From a virus (Duplodnaviria; Heunggongvirae; Uroviricota; Caudoviricetes): a stretch of 7,315 nucleotides of DNA. The stretch lies in IMG/VR virus record IMGVR_UViG_2778261512_000020, positions 1 through 7,315 of that record, one strand, 5' to 3'. Under the pieces are notes generated by a model. It made no database searches. It was not told where the DNA came from and worked only from the letters and a program-made list of their open reading frames with translations. The position numbers were made by a program, and so were the translations under genes. Positions 1-5,897 of this stretch are shown one piece after another (the stretch's first letter is position 1; every line of letters starts with the position of its first letter).

Positions 1-132
1 ATGATTTACGCAATCGCGGGAGGCGCTCGCATGGGTGCCTTCCAATTAAATGAATCTTTACTTGAACGAATCACCCGTAAATTACGTGACGGATGGAAAA
101 GAGTTGAGGTCTTATTATGCGCAATGAAATAG
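1..132 (+). CDS. cIII: CIII-like protease (FtsH/HflB) inhibitor, 43 aa
   Basis: Translation from the ATG at 1 is MIYAIAGGARMGAFQLNESLLERITRKLRDGWKRVEVLLCAMK, stop TAG 130-132. The core ESLLERITRKLRDGWKR matches the conserved amphipathic helix of lambda CIII as I recall it. Too short for the ORF track. The start coincides with the window edge, so the true start and RBS cannot be checked. Confidence 0.75.
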   Translation: MIYAIAGGARMGAFQLNESLLERITRKLRDGWKRVEVLLCAMK

Positions 133-269
133 CCATCAATCACCAGATGCTTCGTGCAGCACAGAACAAAGCAGTAATAGCCAGATTTATTGGTGATTCA
201 AAAATGTGGATTGAAGCAAATAAAGCGATGAAATCAGCTATCAACCTTCCGTGGTATCGCAGGAAATGA
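117..269 (+). CDS. kil: Kil-like small protein (putative host cell-division inhibitor), 50 aa
   Basis: ATG 117 lies inside the 3' end of cIII in another frame, as kil does in lambda. Translation is MRNEIAINHQMLRAAQNKAVIARFIGDSKMWIEANKAMKSAINLPWYRRK, stop TGA 267-269. The IA-FIGD-KM segment resembles what I remember of lambda Kil; the call rests mainly on synteny and size. Confidence 0.45.
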   Translation: MRNEIAINHQMLRAAQNKAVIARFIGDSKMWIEANKAMKSAINLPWYRRK

Positions 270-424
270 GTTTTACAGATAACTGGTCAGACGAAGAATT
301 CATTCGTCAGATGAAAGAATTAATCGGTAACGAAGGAGATATTCATGTCACTTGCAACCACAGTGAAGGAGAGCAAGTTACAGAGACGCATGTACACGCA
401 GAAAGCTCTCTGGTATCGCCATAA
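266..424 (+). CDS. Hypothetical small protein, 52 aa, at the position where lambda has gam and P22 has arf
   Basis: ATG 266-268 overlaps the kil stop (ATGA, TGA 267-269), with AGGA at 261-264. Translation is MSFTDNWSDEEFIRQMKELIGNEGDIHVTCNHSEGEQVTETHVHAESSLVSP, stop TAA 422-424. It is the only open frame in this interval. Confidence 0.4.
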   Translation: MSFTDNWSDEEFIRQMKELIGNEGDIHVTCNHSEGEQVTETHVHAESSLVSP

Positions 425-525: not shown

Positions 526-1131
526 ATGAGCAAAGAATTTTATGCAAGGCTGGCAGCCATTCAGGAGAATCTGAACGCGCCAAAGAATCAGTACAACTCA
601 TTCGGTAAATATAAATACAGAAGCTGCGAAGACATTCTTGAAGGCGTTAAGCCGTTACTGAATGGTCTGTTTTTATCAATCAGCGATGAAGTTGTGTTGA
701 TTGGTGATCGGTATTACGTGAAAGCCACGGCAACTATTACCGATGGCGAAAACAGTCATACGGCAACCGCTCTTGCACGAGAGGAAGAAAGCAAGAAAGG
801 AATGGATTCTGCACAAGTTACGGGAGCTACAAGCTCTTATGCACGCAAGTATTGCCTCAATGGTTTGTTCGGCATTGATGATGCGAAAGATGCAGATACC
901 GACGAGCATAAACATCAGCAGAACGCAGCAGCAAAGCAATCAAAACCATCACCTACACCTGAACAGGTTCTAAAAGCATTCACTGACGCAGCATTGCAGA
1001 AAAACACCGTGGAAGAGCTTAAACAGGCGTTCGCCAAAGCGTGGAAGATGCTCGAAGGCACACCGGAGCAGCACAAAGCGCAGGACGTTTACAACATCAG
1101 ACGAGACGAATTAGAAGGAGCAGCTGCTTAA
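526..1131 (+). CDS. erf: Erf-family single-strand annealing protein (essential recombination function, P22 Erf-like)
   Basis: 201-aa translation begins MSKEFYARLAAIQENLNAPKNQYNSFGKYKYRSCEDILEGVKPLL, which I recognise as the Erf N-terminal annealing domain, followed by a low-complexity linker and C-terminal domain. The ORF track starts at TTG 496, but the ATG at 526 matches the family N-terminus. Stop TAA 1129-1131. Confidence 0.85.
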   Translation: MSKEFYARLAAIQENLNAPKNQYNSFGKYKYRSCEDILEGVKPLLNGLFLSISDEVVLIGDRYYVKATATITDGENSHTATALAREEESKKGMDSAQVTGATSSYARKYCLNGLFGIDDAKDADTDEHKHQQNAAAKQSKPSPTPEQVLKAFTDAALQKNTVEELKQAFAKAWKMLEGTPEQHKAQDVYNIRRDELEGAAA

Positions 1132-1514
1132 TGGCACATTCGATTACTGTAAGACTAAACAAGCCCGCAAGAGAGTTTCAGGCCGGGGAAAATATCGGAT
1201 TCAACATCCGTGCTGGCGTTCAGTATTACGATCGCCAGACAAAAAAGAAAGAATGGACAAACTACAGCGCCGTTGTATTTGCCAAGCCGGGAGCGCAAGC
1301 GGATTACTACCGTAGTGTTCTTGTTGAAGGTGGCATTGTGGAAATTACCGGAGAAAACATCAGGGTTGATGTTTATCAGGGGCAAAATGGTCAATCAATC
1401 ACTCTTGAATTACTGAATGCAAAGATTGGATTTGCAGCTTCAGGAAATGGCCCGCAGCAGCAAAGTAGTAACCAGCAGAACACTCCTGTATACGACGATT
1501 CCATCCCATTCTGA
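1131..1514 (+). CDS. Phage SSB-like single-stranded DNA-binding protein, 127 aa, with canonical acidic C-terminal tip
   Basis: ATG 1131-1133 overlaps the erf stop (TAATG), with GGAG at 1116-1119. Translation is MAHSITVRLNKPAREF...NAKIGFAASGNGPQQQSSNQQNTPVYDDSIPF. The DDSIPF ending matches the bacterial SSB tail (DDDIPF), the preceding Gln/Gly-rich linker and the N-terminal 100 aa are consistent with an OB fold. The track ORF from 1041 is an in-frame upstream extension inside erf. Confidence 0.7.
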   Translation: MAHSITVRLNKPAREFQAGENIGFNIRAGVQYYDRQTKKKEWTNYSAVVFAKPGAQADYYRSVLVEGGIVEITGENIRVDVYQGQNGQSITLELLNAKIGFAASGNGPQQQSSNQQNTPVYDDSIPF

Positions 1515-1537: not shown

Positions 1538-1834
1538 ATGCCAGCGCCTCTGTATGGTGCGGATGACGCGCGCCGCTGTTCCGGCAATTCCGTATCGGAG
1601 GTGCTGGATAAATTCAGGAAAAACTACGACCTGATAATGTCGCTACCTCAGGAAACGAAAGAGGAAAAGGAATTTCGCCATTGTATATGGCTTGCAGAGA
1701 AAGAAGAACGAGAGCGAATTTACCAGACATCAATCCGACCATTCCGCAAAGCCACATATACCCACTTCCCTGAATATATCGACCCGCGCCTGCGTAATTA
1801 CCGCTCACGCTATGGCGCTATCAGTAATGACTGA
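1538..1834 (+). CDS. Hypothetical protein, 98 aa, basic/charged
   Basis: ATG 1538 is preceded by AAGGA (1526-1530) with a 7-nt spacer; stop TGA 1832-1834. Translation [63 protein letters not shown]... has no family I can recognise. Confidence 0.55.
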
Positions 1835-1844
1835 GGAATTTACA

Positions 1845-2009
1845 ATGAGAGGACTTGCATACAATCCCGGCATTCTTCCGGCAGAAATGATTATTCGCCA
1901 ACGCGTAAAGCCAATGCCATCGAGAGAGGAATTGCTTAAGAGAAATTCTTTTCCATCAGTGAATCAAAACAAATATCTGAATGCGATGTGGCGGAGTGGG
2001 AAGAAATGA
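1845..2009 (+). CDS. Hypothetical small protein, 54 aa
   Basis: ATG 1845 is preceded by GAGG (1833-1836) with an 8-nt spacer. Translation is [54 protein letters not shown]. Its stop TGA 2007-2009 overlaps the next start (ATGA). The track ORF 1692-2009 is an upstream extension overlapping the previous gene. Confidence 0.45.
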
Positions 2010-2572
2010 AACAAATGTCACTAATTGAGATGGATGGTTTTCTGAAAGGTAAATGCATCCCAAGTGATTTAAAGGTTAACGAAACAAACGCTGAATATCT
2101 GGTGCGTAAATTTGCTGAAGCGGAGGCCAAGATTTCCGCGCTGTCAGAAGACCAGCAGAGAGCGATTGAGTCAATTAAGCAGGCTGATGCGGCTGTTAAG
2201 TTGGCACACGAGAAGTTTTCAGCGCTGGCTGCGGAGAATGCGGTGATGAAAGCGTTTGGCGACAAGCTATACAGCATGTATAAAGGCCTTGAGGCCTCTG
2301 GTGGTGGATTCCATGACGAACAGTCAATTCCCTATCAGCAAGCGGCTCTCGATGCGGCAATATCGGAGTTCGAGAAAATCAAAACCCCGGCGACCGATGC
2401 GTTCCTGGCTGAATTGCTGGCGCATGGTGTGGAGTTGTTTGCTGAAAGCCAGAATGAATACGTCAGAAAAAACCGCAACGAATTGGATTCCATGACTCGC
2501 GCCGCCTATTGCGGAAGCGCTGTTGATGCTGAGAGATTCGCCGCCCAGCTTCGCAAAGGAGTGCAGTCATGA
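2006..2572 (+). CDS. Hypothetical protein, 188 aa, Ala/Glu-rich and probably helical or coiled-coil
   Basis: ATG 2006 has GGAAG 5 nt upstream and an ATGA overlap with the preceding ORF; the track start GTG 1988 is also possible. Translation [71 protein letters not shown]... Stop TGA 2570-2572. Confidence 0.6.
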
Positions 2573-2802
2573 GCAACCTACTACCATGTCCATTCTGTGG
2601 CGGCGCAGCGCACGTTGCCAGTGAAGCAGATCACCCTGAATATGGCTCTGGAGGTAGATTCTATTTCGTTCGATGCGGTACGTGTCGCGCTCAATCTGGT
2701 AGCAAATATGCAGCGCCTGGAAATGACTGCGCGATTTTTTATTCAGAGGTTAGAGCTGAGTGGAATCAGCGAGCAAAGGAGGCAACCAGTGAGCGAAATT
2801 AA
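2569..2802 (+). CDS. lar: Lar-family restriction-alleviation protein (zinc-ribbon, Rac prophage Lar/RalR-like), 77 aa
   Basis: ATG 2569 overlaps the preceding stop (ATGA), with AAGGAG at 2556-2561. Translation [44 protein letters not shown]...AEWNQRAKE has the CPFCGG ... CGTC zinc-ribbon arrangement I associate with Lar-family proteins. Stop TAA 2800-2802. Confidence 0.65.
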   Translation: MSNLLPCPFCGGAAHVASEADHPEYGSGGRFYFVRCGTCRAQSGSKYAAPGNDCAIFYSEVRAEWNQRAKEATSERN

Positions 2803-3241
2803 TTACCAGGCACTGCGTGCTAAGGCAGAAAAAGCAACGTGTGGCGAGTGGTCGCTCGAATATGGAGATGGCCGATTTGATGGTGATGATGCGCTAATTC
2901 ATCGCGAGGCTGCTGGATATATTCCCATTTGCAGAATTGAAGGCGCGCATCCAGAAAGCGGTTTCGATGAAGATTTCCAAATGGAACAGCAGGCCAATGC
3001 TGAATTCATCGCCGCAGCCAATCCAGCTACCGTGCTGGCGCTGCTGGATGAGCTGGAAGCCAAAGACAAGCGGATTGCTGACATGGAGGCGCGGGAGGTT
3101 GTACTGCCGCGTGCGCACGATGTTCACCCATTAGGGCCGCAGTCGGCGAAAATTTTTTGTGAGTTTCACCGGAGTATCGTGAACAGATGCGCCGATGAGA
3201 TTCGCAAGGTTGGCGTCAAAGTCAGCATCAAGGGGAATTAG
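2789..3241 (+). CDS. Ead/Ea22-like family protein, 150 aa
   Basis: GTG 2789 is preceded by a strong AAGGAGG (2776-2782) with a 6-nt spacer. Translation VSEINYQALRAKAEKATCGEWSLEYGDGRFDGDD...ANAEFIAAANPATVLALLDELEAKDKRIADMEAR carries the GEW and FIAAA...LLDELEAKDKRIA motifs I recognise from Ead/Ea22-like prophage proteins. The track ORF from 2597 is an extension running through the lar gene in another frame. Confidence 0.55.
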   Translation: MSEINYQALRAKAEKATCGEWSLEYGDGRFDGDDALIHREAAGYIPICRIEGAHPESGFDEDFQMEQQANAEFIAAANPATVLALLDELEAKDKRIADMEAREVVLPRAHDVHPLGPQSAKIFCEFHRSIVNRCADEIRKVGVKVSIKGN

Positions 3242-3245
3242 GGAT

Positions 3246-3647
3246 ATGGCTGAACTAACCAAAGAATGGCTGAAGCAAACTATCGCTGAATACGAAGCCA
3301 ATCGTGATGAATTACCGTTTGGACTGGATACCAACAGTGCCATTGAGCTTCAGGCGTTCAAGTTGGCGCTGGCATCGCTGGAAGCAGATCCAGTTGCTTA
3401 TATTTTCAAACATCCGGCCGGGAAATTATTCTTGGCTTTAACGGATGAAAGCAATAAAGATCAATCGGACGTTATTCCTGTTTATGCCGCCCCTCCAGTA
3501 CCAGTAGTACCTGCTGCATTACCTGAGAACGACGATGAGGACTGGCATGACATTGATTATCTTGAGCCATCTGAAGTTTACTCGCTTGGGCGAACAGCTG
3601 GCTGGAACGCCTGCCGTGCTGCCATGCTTAAGGGAGATAAATCATGA
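3246..3647 (+). CDS. Hypothetical prophage protein, 133 aa
   Basis: ATG 3246 follows the previous stop TAG 3239-3241, with AGGGG at 3231-3235. Translation MAELTKEWLKQTIAEYEANRDELPFGL...VAYIFKHPAGKLF...PVYAAPP...GWNACRAAMLKGDKS has typical coding codon usage. The track start at 3195 would overlap the previous gene. Confidence 0.6.
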   Translation: MAELTKEWLKQTIAEYEANRDELPFGLDTNSAIELQAFKLALASLEADPVAYIFKHPAGKLFLALTDESNKDQSDVIPVYAAPPVPVVPAALPENDDEDWHDIDYLEPSEVYSLGRTAGWNACRAAMLKGDKS

Positions 3648-4060
3648 TTAATCGCACCAAGCTGGAGCACATCCTCGAATATGCCAGACAGCAGAGGCGC
3701 TTTGGTCAGCATTGCAAAATTCCGCCAGGAGATATGGTTGAAATCGTGGAGATTGCCATGCGCAAGGCTGGCAACTCTCCGGTAACTCCGGATGGTTGGA
3801 TAAGCTGTAGTGATCGAATGCCTGTAATTGGTGAGCTAAATTGGAGAACTAGTTTTCCTTTGCTGATTACGTGTGAGATTGGCGTTATACCAGCTTATTA
3901 CGGCTTTGTGAGCATTAATGGGGATAGGCATTATGGCTTTATGGAGAGTCTTAAATACGGAGACGATAGCGGCGGCCATCCTCAAACTAATGAATATGAT
4001 CTGATTAGCAATGTAACCCACTGGATGCCGCTACCAGAACCGCCTCAGGAGGCAAAATGA
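3644..4060 (+). CDS. DUF551-like prophage protein, 138 aa
   Basis: ATG 3644 overlaps the preceding stop (ATGA), with AGGGAG at 3632-3637. The C-terminus ...NVTHWMPLPEPPQEAK and the internal W-x-S-x-DR-x-P segment match my recollection of DUF551 proteins found near xis/int in enterobacterial prophages. Confidence 0.55.
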   Translation: MINRTKLEHILEYARQQRRFGQHCKIPPGDMVEIVEIAMRKAGNSPVTPDGWISCSDRMPVIGELNWRTSFPLLITCEIGVIPAYYGFVSINGDRHYGFMESLKYGDDSGGHPQTNEYDLISNVTHWMPLPEPPQEAK

Positions 4061-4316
4061 TGGATGTAAAAGAGAAGGTTTTGCAGGTGATGCGTTCCCG
4101 GGCGCCCTGCAAGATAAAGCTCTCGGCGGGGAATATCCATTCAGGATGGCAACCTGGAATCTGCGGTTGGCAATGGAGAAGGAATTTCCTGATGAAGAAT
4201 GGCGTTCGGCAGATTTGCGCAAAATTCTTATGGAGCTGGCTAAAGACGGAGCAGTATCCAAAGATACCTATGCCAGCCGGATTGGTCAGACGGTATGGAG
4301 ACTGGAGGTGAGGTAA
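4057..4316 (+). CDS. Hypothetical small protein with ambiguous reading frame (possible frameshifted gene)
   Basis: A strong AGGAGG (4046-4051) and ATG 4057/4060 with an ATGA overlap indicate initiation in the track frame (4057-4311). Downstream, that frame is rich in Trp and rare Arg/Ile codons (AGG, AGA, ATA, CGG), whereas the -1 frame reads protein-like (MATWNLRLAMEKEFPDEEWRSADLRKILMELAKDGAVSKDTYASRIGQTVWRLEVR, ATG 4146 to TAA 4314-4316). Confidence 0.3.
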
Positions 4317-4423
4317 TGGCTAACCTGCAACTTGCCGTCAAATGTGAATAACAATCCTCGCATTCGCGGGGATTTCTTTTATCTGAACTCGCTACGGCGA
4401 GTTTTGTTTTATGGAGATGATAA

Positions 4424-4606: not shown

Positions 4607-4650
4607 GCGTGTAATTGCGGAGACTTTGCGATGTACTTGACACTTCAGGA
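4600..4650 (+). promoter_or_regulatory. pI (int) promoter region with cII-binding tetrad repeat TTGC-N6-TTGC
   Basis: TTGCgtgtaaTTGC at 4605-4618 is the direct-repeat architecture of cII-activated promoters (pRE, pI, paQ). It sits just upstream of and overlapping the xis start (4631), as in lambda, where the pI transcript starts inside xis so Int is made without Xis. Confidence 0.65.
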
Positions 4651-4849
4651 GTGGAACGCACGCCAGCGACGCCCAAGAAGCCTTGAAACAGTTCGTCGAT
4701 GGGTGCGCGAATGCAGGATATTCCCTCCTCCGGTTAAGGATGGAAGAGAGTATCTGTTCCACGAATCAGCGGTAAAGGTTGACTTAAATCGACCAGTAAC
4801 AGGTAGCCTTTTGAAGAGGATCAGAAATGGGAAGAAGGCGAAGTCATGA
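4631..4849 (+). CDS. xis: Excisionase Xis, 72 aa
   Basis: Translation MYLTLQEWNARQRRPRSLETVRRWVRECRIFPPPVKDGREYLFHESAVKVDLNRPVTGSLLKRIRNGKKAKS matches lambda Xis as I recall it. The 3' end overlaps the int start by 23 nt, as in lambda. Confidence 0.95.
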   Translation: MYLTLQEWNARQRRPRSLETVRRWVRECRIFPPPVKDGREYLFHESAVKVDLNRPVTGSLLKRIRNGKKAKS

Positions 4850-5897
4850 GCGCCGGGATTTACCCCCTAACCTTTATATAAGAAACAATGGATATTACTG
4901 CTACAGGGACCCAAGGACGGGTAAAGAGTTTGGTTTAGGCCGAGACAGGAGGATAGCAATCACTGAAGCAATACAGGCCAATATTGAGTTATTTTCAGGA
5001 CACAAACACAAGCCTCTGACAGCGAGAATCAACAGTGATAATTCTGTTACGTTACATTCATGGCTTGATCGCTACGAAAAAATCCTCGCCAGCAGAGGAA
5101 TCAAGCAGAAGACACTCATAAATTACATGAGCAAAATTAAAGCAATAAGGAGGGGGCTGCCTGATGCTCCACTTGAAGACATCACCACAAAAGAAATTGC
5201 GGCAATGCTCAATGGATACATAGACGAGGGCAAGGCGGCGTCAGCCAAGTTAATCAGATCAACACTGAGCGATGCATTCCGAGAGGCAATAGCTGAAGGC
5301 CATATAACAACAAACCCGGTCGCTGCCACTCGCGCAGCAAAATCAGAGGTAAGGAGATCAAGACTTACGGCTGACGAATACCTGAAAATTTATCAAGCAG
5401 CAGAATCATCACCATGTTGGCTCAGACTTGCAATGGAACTGGCTGTTGTTACCGGGCAGCGAGTTGGTGATTTATGCGAAATGAAGTGGTCTGATATCGT
5501 AGATGGATATCTTTATGTCGAACAAAGCAAAACAGGCGTAAAAATTGCCATCCCTACAACATTGCATGTTGATGCTCTCGGGATATCAATGAAGGAAACA
5601 CTTGATAAATGCAAAGAGATTCTTGGCGGAGAAACCATAATTGCATCTACTCGTCGTGAACCGCTTTCATCCGGCACAGTATCAAGGTATTTTATGCGCG
5701 CACGAAAAGCATCAGGTCTTTCCTTCGAAGGGGATCCGCCTACCTTTCACGAGTTGCGCAGTTTGTCTGCAAGACTCTATGAGAAGCAGATAAGCGATAA
5801 GTTTGCTCAACATCTTCTCGGACATAAGTCGGACACCATGGCATCACAGTATCGTGATGACAGAGGCAGGGAGTGGGACAAAATTGAAATCAAATAA
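4827..5897 (+). CDS. int: Tyrosine site-specific integrase Int (lambda-type), 356 aa
   Basis: Translation begins MGRRRSHERRDLPPNLYIRNNGYYCYRDPRTGKEFGLGRDRRIAITEA and ends SQYRDDRGREWDKIEIK, with the catalytic R...HxxR...Y residues (HELRSL, HLLGHKSD, ASQYRDD). It matches lambda Int as I recall it. Stop TAA 5895-5897. Confidence 0.97.
   Translation: MGRRRSHERRDLPPNLYIRNNGYYCYRDPRTGKEFGLGRDRRIAITEAIQANIELFSGHKHKPLTARINSDNSVTLHSWLDRYEKILASRGIKQKTLINYMSKIKAIRRGLPDAPLEDITTKEIAAMLNGYIDEGKAASAKLIRSTLSDAFREAIAEGHITTNPVAATRAAKSEVRRSRLTADEYLKIYQAAESSPCWLRLAMELAVVTGQRVGDLCEMKWSDIVDGYLYVEQSKTGVKIAIPTTLHVDALGISMKETLDKCKEILGGETIIASTRREPLSSGTVSRYFMRARKASGLSFEGDPPTFHELRSLSARLYEKQISDKFAQHLLGHKSDTMASQYRDDRGREWDKIEIK

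What the first reader, a model, noticed from the sequence alone, without database searches (positions are those of the whole stretch)
1538..2572. Three uncharacterised genes between the erf/ssb module and lar are candidate anti-defence cargo
Three co-directional genes (98 aa basic, 54 aa, 188 aa Ala/Glu-rich helical) sit where lambdoid phages keep rapidly exchanging accessory genes: lambda has orf61/orf63/orf60a/ea22 and P22 has the anti-RecBCD genes abc1/abc2 right after erf. The second and third are coupled by an ATGA overlap (2006-2009) and the third to lar by another (2569-2572), so they are co-translated with a known anti-restriction gene. I recognise none of them. Given their small size they are more likely host-takeover or anti-defence proteins (for example RecBCD inhibition, which an Erf phage lacking Gam would need) than a defence system.
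Basis: inference. Interest (0 to 1): 0.6.

Follow-up and report, generated by a model that had tools for sequence, protein, structure and literature searches.

The report
Abc2, DUF2737 and an Oad2/EaE-family gene
The three "unknown" prophage genes are the known P22-type trio abc2–orf56–eaE: a solved RecBCD-hijacking protein, a small conserved protein of unknown function, and a rare new mosaic version of a helical protein family in which one member was recently shown to block the P2 OLD defence nuclease.

Summary
Three co-directional genes lie at 1538-1834, 1845-2009 and 2006-2572, with ATGA overlaps at 2006-2009 and 2569-2572. "Uncharacterised" does not hold.

- **Gene 1 is Abc2.** Pfam PF11043 matches at 4e-62. 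It is 93% identical to P22 Abc2, whose RecBCD complex is solved (PDB 8b1t), and Pro68 is kept.
- **Gene 2 is DUF2737.** It corresponds to P22 orf56 and HK97 gp38. It is a real gene under purifying selection (dN/dS about 0.06), and its function is unknown.
- **Gene 3 is an EaE-family protein.** It sits in the same position as HK446 gp27 (Oad2) and is 41% identical to it. A July 2026 preprint reports Oad2 as a direct inhibitor of the P2 OLD nuclease. The identity lies almost entirely in constant modules. The variable modules, which separate active Oad2 from the inactive HK75 homologue, are unrelated here, so the target is unknown.

The order abc2, DUF2737, then a variable cassette recurs in P22, ES18, HK97-like and Stx phages, whichever annealing protein they carry. 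ATGA coupling is the standard cassette junction throughout this region, so it is not evidence of a partnership.

This is a new member of known kinds, of modest interest.

The parts
117..269 (+). kil (context: start of the early-left recombination locus)
   Evidence: 98% identical to HK446 Kil; phrog_2055 at 3.6e-35
266..424 (+). Homologue of HK446/HK75 gp33, reported as sufficient to trigger P2 OLD toxicity
   Evidence: 88% identity over 52 aa to HK446 gp33; phrog_2123; trigger role from the preprint 10.64898/2026.07.10.737580
526..1131 (+). erf, single-strand annealing protein
   Evidence: Pfam ERF 2.5e-44; 99.5% identical to HK446 Erf; 75% to P22 Erf
1131..1514 (+). SSB-like protein (HK97 gp40 type, 'SSB-1b')
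   Evidence: 94% identical to HK97 gp40 and 99% to HK106 gp36; phrog_44 SSB; called SSB-1b in PMC12315714
1538..1834 (+). Gene 1 = abc2, anti-RecBCD protein 2 (binds RecC and reprograms RecBCD)
   Evidence: PF11043 4e-62, full length; phrog_656; 93% identical to P22 Abc2; PDB 8b1t/8b1u at 2.3e-56; Pro68 retained (sequence)
1845..2009 (+). Gene 2 = DUF2737 small protein (P22 orf56, HK97 gp38); function unknown
   Evidence: PF10930 2.6e-31; 75% identical to P22 orf56 and 94% to HK97 gp38; dN/dS 0.06; low-confidence AF2 model with three short helices
2006..2572 (+). Gene 3 = EaE/Oad2-family modular helical protein, a rare mosaic allele
   Evidence: phrog_614 1.9e-51; 41% identity, E 2e-38, full length to HK446 gp27 = Oad2; C-terminus similar to P22 EaE; AF2 pLDDT 84.7 with a long helix at 26-97 and a three-helix bundle at 105-184; full-length allele in only 2 of 5426 complete E. 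coli genomes
2006..2009 (+). ATGA stop/start overlap between gene 2 and gene 3
   Evidence: Sequence; kept in 78 of 80 related loci
2545..2572 (+). Standard cassette junction: CGCAAAGGAGTGCAGTCATGA encodes the C-terminal LRKGVQS*, the Shine-Dalgarno sequence and the start of lar
   Evidence: The same junction follows the EaE homologue in Citrobacter (L086) and the DUF2737 variant in L091
2569..2802 (+). lar-like restriction-alleviation gene (four-Cys zinc ribbon)
   Evidence: Pfam PF14354 38.5 bits, above the 28.6 cut-off; NCBIfam TIGR03655 29.4 bits, below the 39.6 cut-off; RefSeq names the orthologue as Lar family
2789..3241 (+). Ead/Ea22-like gene (GTG start), the next accessory cassette
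   Evidence: PF13935 3.1e-22; N-terminus matches lambda Ea22

Best explanation
The interval holds the distal end of an HK97/HK446-type early-left (PL) recombination locus and the first cassette of the variable 'ea' accessory region. The element is a lambdoid prophage integrated at attB-lambda next to ybhC. The three genes correspond to P22 abc2-orf56-eaE.

- Gene 1 (Abc2). [quoted passage not shown] Pro68 engages host PpiB. It does not block RecBCD; it makes the enzyme Chi-blind and recombinogenic for the phage annealing protein (here Erf plus an SSB-like protein).
- Gene 3. It is a modular all-helical protein built from a constant about 37-residue N-terminal module, a coiled coil with LAAENA, a variable middle, [10 protein letters not shown], a variable helical bundle, and a QLRKG tail that also encodes the ribosome-binding site of the next gene. 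It belongs to the family whose member HK446 gp27 (Oad2) binds the P2 OLD tetramer and prevents its activation. I infer that gene 3 is likewise a binder and inhibitor of a host or prophage immune protein. Its variable modules differ from those of Oad2, so its target is probably a different one: another OLD-family or other recombination-guard system.
- Gene 2 (DUF2737). It is a conserved peptide of about 54 residues, probably disordered when alone. I infer that it binds a conserved host factor. Its function is unknown.

All three are transcribed from PL and translated through SD-plus-ATGA junctions, which are the generic cassette joints of this region.
For: Identity of gene 1. Its mechanism: PMC9836394. 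Within the modelled residues 3-66, only positions 11 and 65 differ from P22, and Pro68 is kept.

Synteny with P22, HK97, HK106, HK446, HK75, ES18 and UAB_Phi20.

Gene 3 against Oad2: 41% identity, E 2e-38, same position after DUF2737 with an ATGA overlap. Oad2 function and its stated relation to P22 EaE come from the preprint.

Module analysis against Oad2: N-constant 33/37 identical and [10 protein letters not shown] 10/12, but variable middle 14/45 and variable C-terminal module 9/41. Oad2 and the inactive HK75 gp28 are identical over about the first 60 residues, with only scattered substitutions up to the LAAENA motif at about residue 72, and diverge strongly only in the variable modules.

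Hypervariability suggestive of an arms race: at least 7991 clusters at 90% identity for EaE, against 139 for DUF2737.

The locus also encodes the reported OLD trigger gp33, so an anti-guard gene here makes sense.

Coding status of DUF2737: dN/dS 0.06.

Single transcription unit. Generic junctions.
Against: No experiment exists on this allele. The only functional datum for the EaE family is a preprint on a 41%-identical protein, and a 54%-identical homologue was inactive against OLD. Family membership therefore does not predict the target, or even activity.

Fold searches gave no informative match: best PDB E-value 0.84, and the best BFVD hits are uncharacterised proteins.

For DUF2737 nothing functional is known. 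The AF2 model is low confidence (pLDDT 65).

In the preprint's assays, the OLD trigger was gp33 and not Abc2.
Confidence: 0.75

Rival explanations
1. Gene 3 is a functional orthologue of Oad2. It binds the P2-type OLD tetramer and blocks its tRNase activation, protecting this phage, which carries the gp33 OLD trigger, from P2 lysogens.
For: Same position, same constant modules, 41% full-length identity to Oad2. The window encodes a gp33 homologue that is 88% identical to the reported OLD trigger.
Against: The HK75 homologue is closer to Oad2 (54%) and still does not inhibit OLD. Oad2 and HK75 gp28 diverge strongly only in the variable modules, and those modules in gene 3 match neither protein (14/45 and 9/41 identical to Oad2).
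Confidence: 0.12
2. DUF2737 (gene 2) is a cofactor of Abc2 in the RecBCD hijack. It would stabilise Abc2, or recruit Erf/SSB, and take the role that Abc1 plays in P22.
For: Abc2 lies directly upstream in 79 of the 79 viral loci that extend far enough. The phage database holds 225 full-length Abc2 records and 223 full-length DUF2737 records, with matching organism breakdowns. The pairing persists with Erf-type or Rad52-type annealing proteins and with Abc2 variants only 62-75% identical. Both proteins are unusually conserved.
Against: P22 has both Abc1 and orf56, so DUF2737 does not replace Abc1. The RecBCD-Abc2(-PpiB) complex forms and was solved without it. The conserved C-terminal core of DUF2737 occurs in about 480 virulent Guernseyvirinae genomes, and the two regions inspected there (about 3.5 kb on the upstream side; about 1 and 2 kb downstream) show no Abc2 or recombination genes nearby. 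Another gene is sometimes inserted between abc2 and DUF2737.
Confidence: 0.2
3. Gene 3 is an Ea22-like developmental regulator that biases the lysis-lysogeny decision, and is not an anti-defence protein.
For: It lies in the region equivalent to lambda exo-xis, where ea22 favours lysogeny (PMC7093339, PMC10834534). Some relatives are annotated 'ead/Ea22-like' and are fused to Ead modules. It shares a coiled-coil architecture.
Against: There is no significant similarity to lambda Ea22 (E 2.5). The true Ea22-like gene is the next-but-one cassette at 2789-3241. The only tested family member acts on OLD.
Confidence: 0.08
4. One reading: three wholly uncharacterised, novel anti-defence cargo genes, with the 54-aa and 188-aa proteins acting as a translationally coupled pair.
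For: The location in a hypervariable accessory region, the ATGA overlaps, and the absence of housekeeping homology.
Against: Gene 1 is Abc2, and the trio is already annotated in P22 and HK97. The coupling design is generic to the region. DUF2737 is followed by non-EaE genes in its commonest variant. The EaE effector modules occur without DUF2737 in Citrobacter and Enterobacter nin regions.
Confidence: 0.05

Closest known systems
P22 Abc2 (anti-RecBCD protein 2; Pfam PF11043; PDB 8b1t/8b1u)
   Same: Gene 1 is 93% identical over the full length. Pro68 and 62 of the 64 residues in the modelled RecC-binding segment are kept. It sits downstream of the annealing protein in the PL operon.
   Different: It has a one-residue insertion (PEYIDPR against IEIDPR) and a few substitutions in the disordered C-terminus. 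An SSB-like gene, not abc1, lies between erf and abc2.
P22 orf56 / HK97 gp38 / HK446 gp28 (Pfam DUF2737, PF10930)
   Same: Gene 2 is 75%, 94% and 96% identical to these respectively. It has the same length and the same position directly after abc2.
   Different: Nothing functional is known for any member. The last few residues vary with the cassette that follows (RSGKK against RKGGNQ).
HK446 gp27 = Oad2 (OLD anti-defence 2; bioRxiv 10.64898/2026.07.10.737580)
   Same: Gene 3 has the same genomic slot, the same constant N-terminal module (33/37 identical), and the [16 protein letters not shown] and QLRKG motifs. Overall identity is 41%.
   Different: The variable middle and C-terminal modules are unrelated. 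These are the only parts that separate active Oad2 from inactive HK75 gp28. OLD inhibition is therefore not expected by default.
P22 EaE / HK97 gp37 / HF4s 'EaE'
   Same: All share the [10 protein letters not shown] motif, a helical C-terminal domain and an LRKG(V/G)(Q/N)(S/Q) tail. Identity to HF4s EaE is 67% over residues 1-139, and to HK97 gp37 it is 43%.
   Different: P22 EaE has a different N-terminus. Each protein is a different mosaic of modules. The exact allele here is rare: the best database hit is 82% identical, and it occurs in 2 of 5426 E. coli genomes.
lambda Ea22 (pro-lysogenic exo-xis protein)
   Same: Same genomic region, and coiled-coil content.
   Different: No significant sequence similarity to gene 3 (E 2.5). 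The neighbouring gene at 2789-3241 is the Ea22-like one.

Membership tests
Abc2 (PF11043, anti-RecBCD protein 2) | Full-length profile match above the curated cut-off | tested here: met
   206.9 bits against a cut-off of 25, residues 1-98 on profile 1-97; phrog_656
Abc2 (PF11043, anti-RecBCD protein 2) | Conservation of the RecC-binding helices (residues 3-66 modelled in 8b1t) and of Pro68, which enters the PpiB active site | tested here: met
   The alignment to 8b1t_A shows only A11 and S65 differing within residues 3-66, and P68 is present (role of P68 from PMC9836394)
Abc2 (PF11043, anti-RecBCD protein 2) | Location in the PL operon downstream of a single-strand annealing protein | tested here: met
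   The order is erf, SSB-like, abc2, as in HK97, HK446 and P22
Abc2 (PF11043, anti-RecBCD protein 2) | Binds RecC and abolishes the Chi response of RecBCD | not testable with these tools
   Needs biochemistry or genetics
DUF2737 (PF10930; P22 orf56) | Profile match above the curated cut-off, and a protein of about 50-60 aa | tested here: met
   107.7 bits against a cut-off of 25; phrog_1117 at 4e-38
DUF2737 (PF10930; P22 orf56) | Core motif [15 protein letters not shown]..N.NKYL | tested here: met
   Alignments
EaE/Oad2 family (phrog_614; HK446 gp27) | Full-length sequence similarity to Oad2 and EaE, and the family motifs [16 protein letters not shown] and QLRKG | tested here: met
   E 2e-38 and 41% identity to Oad2; phrog_614 at 1.9e-51; invariant T130, D131 and A132 in the family alignment
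EaE/Oad2 family (phrog_614; HK446 gp27) | Genomic slot directly after DUF2737, with a stop/start overlap | tested here: met
Oad2 in the functional sense (inhibitor of P2 OLD) | Similarity in the variable modules that separate active Oad2 from the inactive HK75 homologue | tested here: not met
   Variable middle 14/45 and variable C-terminal module 9/41 identical to Oad2. Oad2 and HK75 gp28 are identical over about the first 60 residues, with only scattered substitutions up to about residue 72
Oad2 in the functional sense (inhibitor of P2 OLD) | Direct binding to the OLD tetramer and rescue of OLD toxicity in a recB deletion strain | not testable with these tools
   Assays are described in the preprint
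Lar restriction-alleviation family (neighbouring gene) | Profile match above the curated cut-off, and a four-Cys zinc ribbon | tested here: inconclusive
   Pfam PF14354 scores 38.5, above 28.6, but NCBIfam TIGR03655 scores 29.4, below 39.6. CPFC and CGTC are present
lambda Ea22 / Ead family (for gene 3) | Sequence similarity to lambda Ea22 or a PF13935 match | tested here: not met
   No Pfam hit for gene 3; BLASTP E 2.5 against lambda Ea22
Known anti-phage defence systems (PADLOC) | Any component model matched | tested here: not met
   Only a 16-bit coiled-coil match of gene 3 to ZorA, far below any meaningful score

The most novel reading that the evidence does not exclude
Two readings remain open. 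(a) The EaE/Oad2 family could be a combinatorial library: constant scaffold modules carrying exchangeable variable modules, each specific for a different OLD-family or other recombination-guard immune protein. Gene 3 would then specify a target not yet identified. (b) DUF2737 could be a stand-alone host-binding peptide of about 30 conserved residues, shared by temperate Abc2 phages and about 480 virulent Guernseyvirinae. It would neutralise a conserved enterobacterial factor. It might be a second, unrecognised component of the RecBCD or guard-system conflict.
Probability: 0.25. Interest if true: 0.55.

Novelty: new member of a known kind. Interest (0 to 1): 0.27.

Why it matters
The result corrects the annotation. 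One of the three "unknowns" is a structurally solved RecBCD modulator, and another belongs to a family that has just gained its first assigned function. The locus shows the layered conflict in compact form: a reported OLD trigger (gp33), a RecBCD hijacker (Abc2), an Oad2-family protein and Lar all sit on one early transcript. The module analysis points to where target specificity probably lies in Oad2-like proteins, which gives direct module-swap experiments. The contrast between an almost invariant DUF2737 and a hypervariable neighbour marks DUF2737 as a small, tractable unknown with a presumably conserved target.

Tried and rejected
- **Abc1 versus the SSB-like gene.** I tested whether P22 Abc1 is a truncated relative of the SSB-like gene that occupies its slot. 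BLASTP found no similarity. The 94-aa 'ssb' of HF4s is a frameshifted gp40 homologue.
- **Solved structures by sequence.** PDB sequence searches for genes 2 and 3 found nothing at E <= 1.
- **Fold searches of the gene 3 model.** The best PDB E-value was 0.84, all generic helical proteins. The best BFVD E-value was 6e-3, to uncharacterised proteins. Neither was informative.
- **AF2 model of DUF2737.** pLDDT was 65, too low for a fold search.
- **Defence and NCBIfam libraries.** Only spurious coiled-coil hits to ZorA and PcsB appeared.
- **Natural fusions of DUF2737.** The profile search of 1.84 billion representative proteins found 105 small proteins. The few long hits are deletion products (Erf-DUF2737, DUF2737-EaE, DUF2737-DUF551) and not informative domain fusions.
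- **Chi sites.** None occur in the window.
- **Literature.** Searches for DUF2737 and orf56 function found nothing.
Full report
**Observation.** The window is the left (PL) arm and attachment end of a lambdoid prophage at attB-lambda. xis (4631-4849), int (4827-5897) and the host gene ybhC (6032 onward) follow the accessory genes.

| Gene | Coordinates | Length |
|---|---|---|
| 1 | 1538-1834 | 98 aa |
| 2 | 1845-2009 | 54 aa |
| 3 | 2006-2572 | 188 aa |

ATGA stop/start overlaps lie at 2006-2009 and 2569-2572, and a Lar-like gene follows at 2569-2802. Each gene has a Shine-Dalgarno motif upstream. No promoter-like or + strand terminator-like site lies between erf and the Ead-like gene, and the strong + strand terminator hairpins begin at about 4350. 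This fits one N-antiterminated early-left transcript.

**Gene 1 is Abc2.**
- Pfam PF11043 (Anti-RecBCD_p2) matches end to end at 4e-62, and PHROG 656 at 3e-56.
- The protein is 93% identical to P22 Abc2 and 95-98% identical to the Abc2 of HK97, HK106 and HF4s.
- It matches PDB 8b1t/8b1u, the RecBCD-Abc2(-PpiB) complexes, at 2e-56.
- Within residues 3-66, the part modelled on RecC, only positions 11 and 65 differ. Pro68, which enters the PpiB active site, is retained.
[quoted passage not shown] It does not inhibit unwinding. It is thought to turn RecBCD into a Chi-independent recombinogenic enzyme that serves the phage recombinase Erf.

**Gene 2 is DUF2737.**
- PF10930 matches at 2.6e-31. The protein is 75% identical to P22 orf56, 94% to HK97 gp38 and 96% to HK446 gp28.
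- Against P22, dN/dS is 0.06 with saturated synonymous divergence, so it is a translated gene under strong purifying selection.
- The family is small and narrow. There are 139 clusters at 90% identity, all at least about 74% identical to the query, from Escherichia, Salmonella and Shigella. A profile search of 1.84 billion representatives returned only 105 proteins, essentially all of 50-60 residues. The few long hits are deletion fusions.
- AF2 gives a low-confidence model of three short helices (pLDDT 65), as expected for a peptide that folds on a partner.
- No literature on its function was found.

**Gene 3 is an EaE/Oad2-family protein.**
- It has no Pfam domain. PHROG 614 matches at 1.9e-51, and several related PHROGs also match.
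- The N-terminal 37 residues are nearly identical to HK97 gp37 and HK446 gp27. The C-terminal part ([10 protein letters not shown] ... [10 protein letters not shown]) resembles P22 EaE.
- A preprint of July 2026 (10.64898/2026.07.10.737580) reports that HK446 gp27, named Oad2, is sufficient to suppress P2 OLD toxicity and defence. It binds OLD directly and inhibits the tetramer. The authors describe it as related to P22 EaE.
- In HK446, gp27 sits in exactly this slot, after DUF2737 with a 4-nt overlap. Gene 3 is 41% identical to it over the full length (E 2e-38).
- The preprint also reports that the HK75 homologue, 54% identical to Oad2, does not inhibit OLD.
- My alignment shows that Oad2 and HK75 gp28 are identical over about the first 60 residues, with only scattered substitutions up to the LAAENA motif at about residue 72. 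They diverge strongly only in two variable modules.
- Gene 3 shares the constant modules with Oad2 but not the variable ones:

| Module | Identical to Oad2 |
|---|---|
| N-terminal constant | 33/37 |
| LAAENA | 6/8 |
| [10 protein letters not shown] | 10/12 |
| Variable middle | 14/45 |
| Variable C-terminal | 9/41 |

- Family membership is therefore met. Functional equivalence to Oad2 is not supported.
- The AF2 model is confident (pLDDT 84.7). It shows a short helix, a 72-residue helix (26-97) and a three-helix bundle (105-184). Fold searches found nothing informative.
- Gene 3 is not significantly similar to lambda Ea22. The Ea22-like gene is the one at 2789-3241.

**Evolutionary context.**
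- The order abc2, DUF2737, then a variable cassette holds in P22, HK97, HK106, HK446, HK75, ES18 and UAB_Phi20. It also holds in prophages that use a Rad52-type annealing protein instead of Erf.
- In 80 viral loci, abc2 lies directly upstream of DUF2737 in all 79 that extend far enough. In 78, an ATGA overlap leads into the next gene.
- About 75 of these downstream genes start with the same 37-residue module. They then diverge completely in length (92-301 aa) and in their C-termini, which are of EaE type, Ea22 type or DUF551 type.
- The EaE family has at least 7991 clusters at 90% identity. The best match to gene 3 is 82% identical. The full allele occurs in only 2 of 5426 complete E. coli genomes, there also between DUF2737 and Lar.
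- The effector two-thirds of gene 3 (residues 74-188) is 86-89% identical to proteins in Citrobacter and Enterobacter prophages. There it has other N-termini and lies in the nin region after the replication genes, with no Abc2 or DUF2737 nearby.
- The commonest DUF2737 variant is followed by an unrelated 214-aa gene.
- The 54-aa and 188-aa genes are therefore not an obligate pair.
- The overlap design is generic. The C-terminal LRKG(G/V)(N/Q)(Q/S)* of one cassette encodes AAAGGAG plus ATGA for the next. The same or a similar junction recurs at 2569, 2789 (as GTGA), 3644 and 4057, and in unrelated loci. The junction at 3246 is the exception, with a 4-nt gap and no overlap.

**DUF2737 beyond Abc2 phages.**
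- tblastn finds 225 full-length Abc2 records and 223 full-length DUF2737 records among phage genomes, with matching organism breakdowns.
- DUF2737 also has about 480 partial matches, over residues 23-54, in virulent Guernseyvirinae (Jerseyvirus and Kagunavirus).
- In SETP7 and SZH-1, the homologue ([22 protein letters not shown]) sits in an array of small early genes. The inspected flanks are about 3.5 kb on the upstream side and about 1 kb (SETP7) or 2 kb (SZH-1) downstream, and they show no Abc2 or recombination genes.
- This argues for an autonomous function on a conserved host factor and weakens the idea that DUF2737 is a dedicated Abc2 cofactor. Even so, the linkage to Abc2 in temperate phages is striking.

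**Mechanistic picture.**
- What is shown: gene identities, synteny, conservation patterns and the predicted architecture.
- What follows from published work on orthologues: Abc2 reprograms RecBCD through RecC. A family member of gene 3 inhibits OLD by direct binding. The window's gp33 homologue (266-424, 88% identical) belongs to the protein type reported as sufficient to trigger OLD.
- What I infer: gene 3 is a binder and inhibitor of some immune protein that guards recombination or RecBCD status. Its specificity is set by the two variable modules and probably differs from that of Oad2. Gene 2 binds a conserved host target.
- Nothing suggests a defence system.

**Verdict.** Gene 1 is already known. 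Gene 2 is a known family with no known function. Gene 3 is a rare new mosaic member of a family that has just gained its first functional assignment. Interest is modest. The parts worth following are the specificity modules of the Oad2/EaE family and the unknown role of DUF2737.

Noticed in passing
window 2569-2802 and 2597-3241; L003:3846-4076; L001:3929-4159: lar is 100% identical in phage HK106 and 96% identical in HF4s, but it is not annotated in either record. Both records instead annotate a long GTG-initiated ORF in another frame (HK106 gp32, HF4s 'EaD'), which equals window ORF 2597-3241. The true Ead/Ea22-like start is probably the GTG at 2789, behind an AAAGGAGG motif.
   Followed up: partly
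window 266-424: This 52-aa gene is 88% identical to HK446/HK75 gp33. The 2026 preprint reports gp33 as sufficient to trigger P2 OLD toxicity and as a possible new RecBCD manipulator. PHROGs labels the family 'recombinase'.
   Followed up: partly
window 2545-2572, 2772-2792, 3620-3647, 4035-4060; L091:3135-3168; L086:4462-4495: There is a standardised cassette junction. The C-terminal codons ([25 protein letters not shown]) contain the Shine-Dalgarno sequence, and an ATGA (or GTGA) overlap starts the next gene. Conserved protein 'tails' are therefore partly a nucleotide-level constraint, and probably serve as recombination joints for cassette shuffling. Some DUF2737 variants end in RKGGNQ for the same reason.
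   Followed up: partly
L088:3441-3596 (SETP7 gp64); L089:3441-3599 (SZH-1): The C-terminal 32-residue core of DUF2737 is conserved at 59-72% identity in about 480 virulent Guernseyvirinae genomes (Jerseyvirus and Kagunavirus). In the two genomes inspected, it sits in an array of small early genes with no Abc2 in the region examined.
   Followed up: partly
L086:4001-4495 (Citrobacter koseri); L087:4001-4516 (Enterobacter roggenkampii): Residues 74-188 of gene 3 recur at 86-89% identity in other genera, but in the nin region (PR operon, after the replication genes) and with different N-terminal modules. The same effector cassette therefore moves between the two accessory regions of lambdoid phages.
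   Followed up: partly
window 4057-4316: PHROG 2814 (86 aa) is split across two frames. ORF 4057-4311 matches profile positions 1-25, and ORF 4146-4316 matches positions 31-86. This suggests a frameshifted (pseudo)gene just before the terminators at 4353-4404.
   Followed up: no
L001:2501-2896 (HF4s): The annotated 94-aa 'ssb' of phage HF4s matches the HK97 gp40-type SSB-like protein only over its first 40 residues and then diverges. It looks like a frameshift in that record, or a sequencing error.
   Followed up: no
window 1131-1514: The gene occupying the slot of P22 abc1 is an SSB-like protein of the HK97 gp40 type ('SSB-1b' in PMC12315714). It has no Pfam hit and no similarity to Abc1. Its C-terminus ends in DDSIPF, like the acidic tail of bacterial SSB.
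   Followed up: partly
P0243, P0245, P0247 (database proteins): Prophage deletion products fuse Erf to DUF2737, DUF2737 to an EaE C-terminus, and DUF2737 to a DUF551 protein. These show frequent illegitimate or junction-mediated deletions across this region.
   Followed up: no
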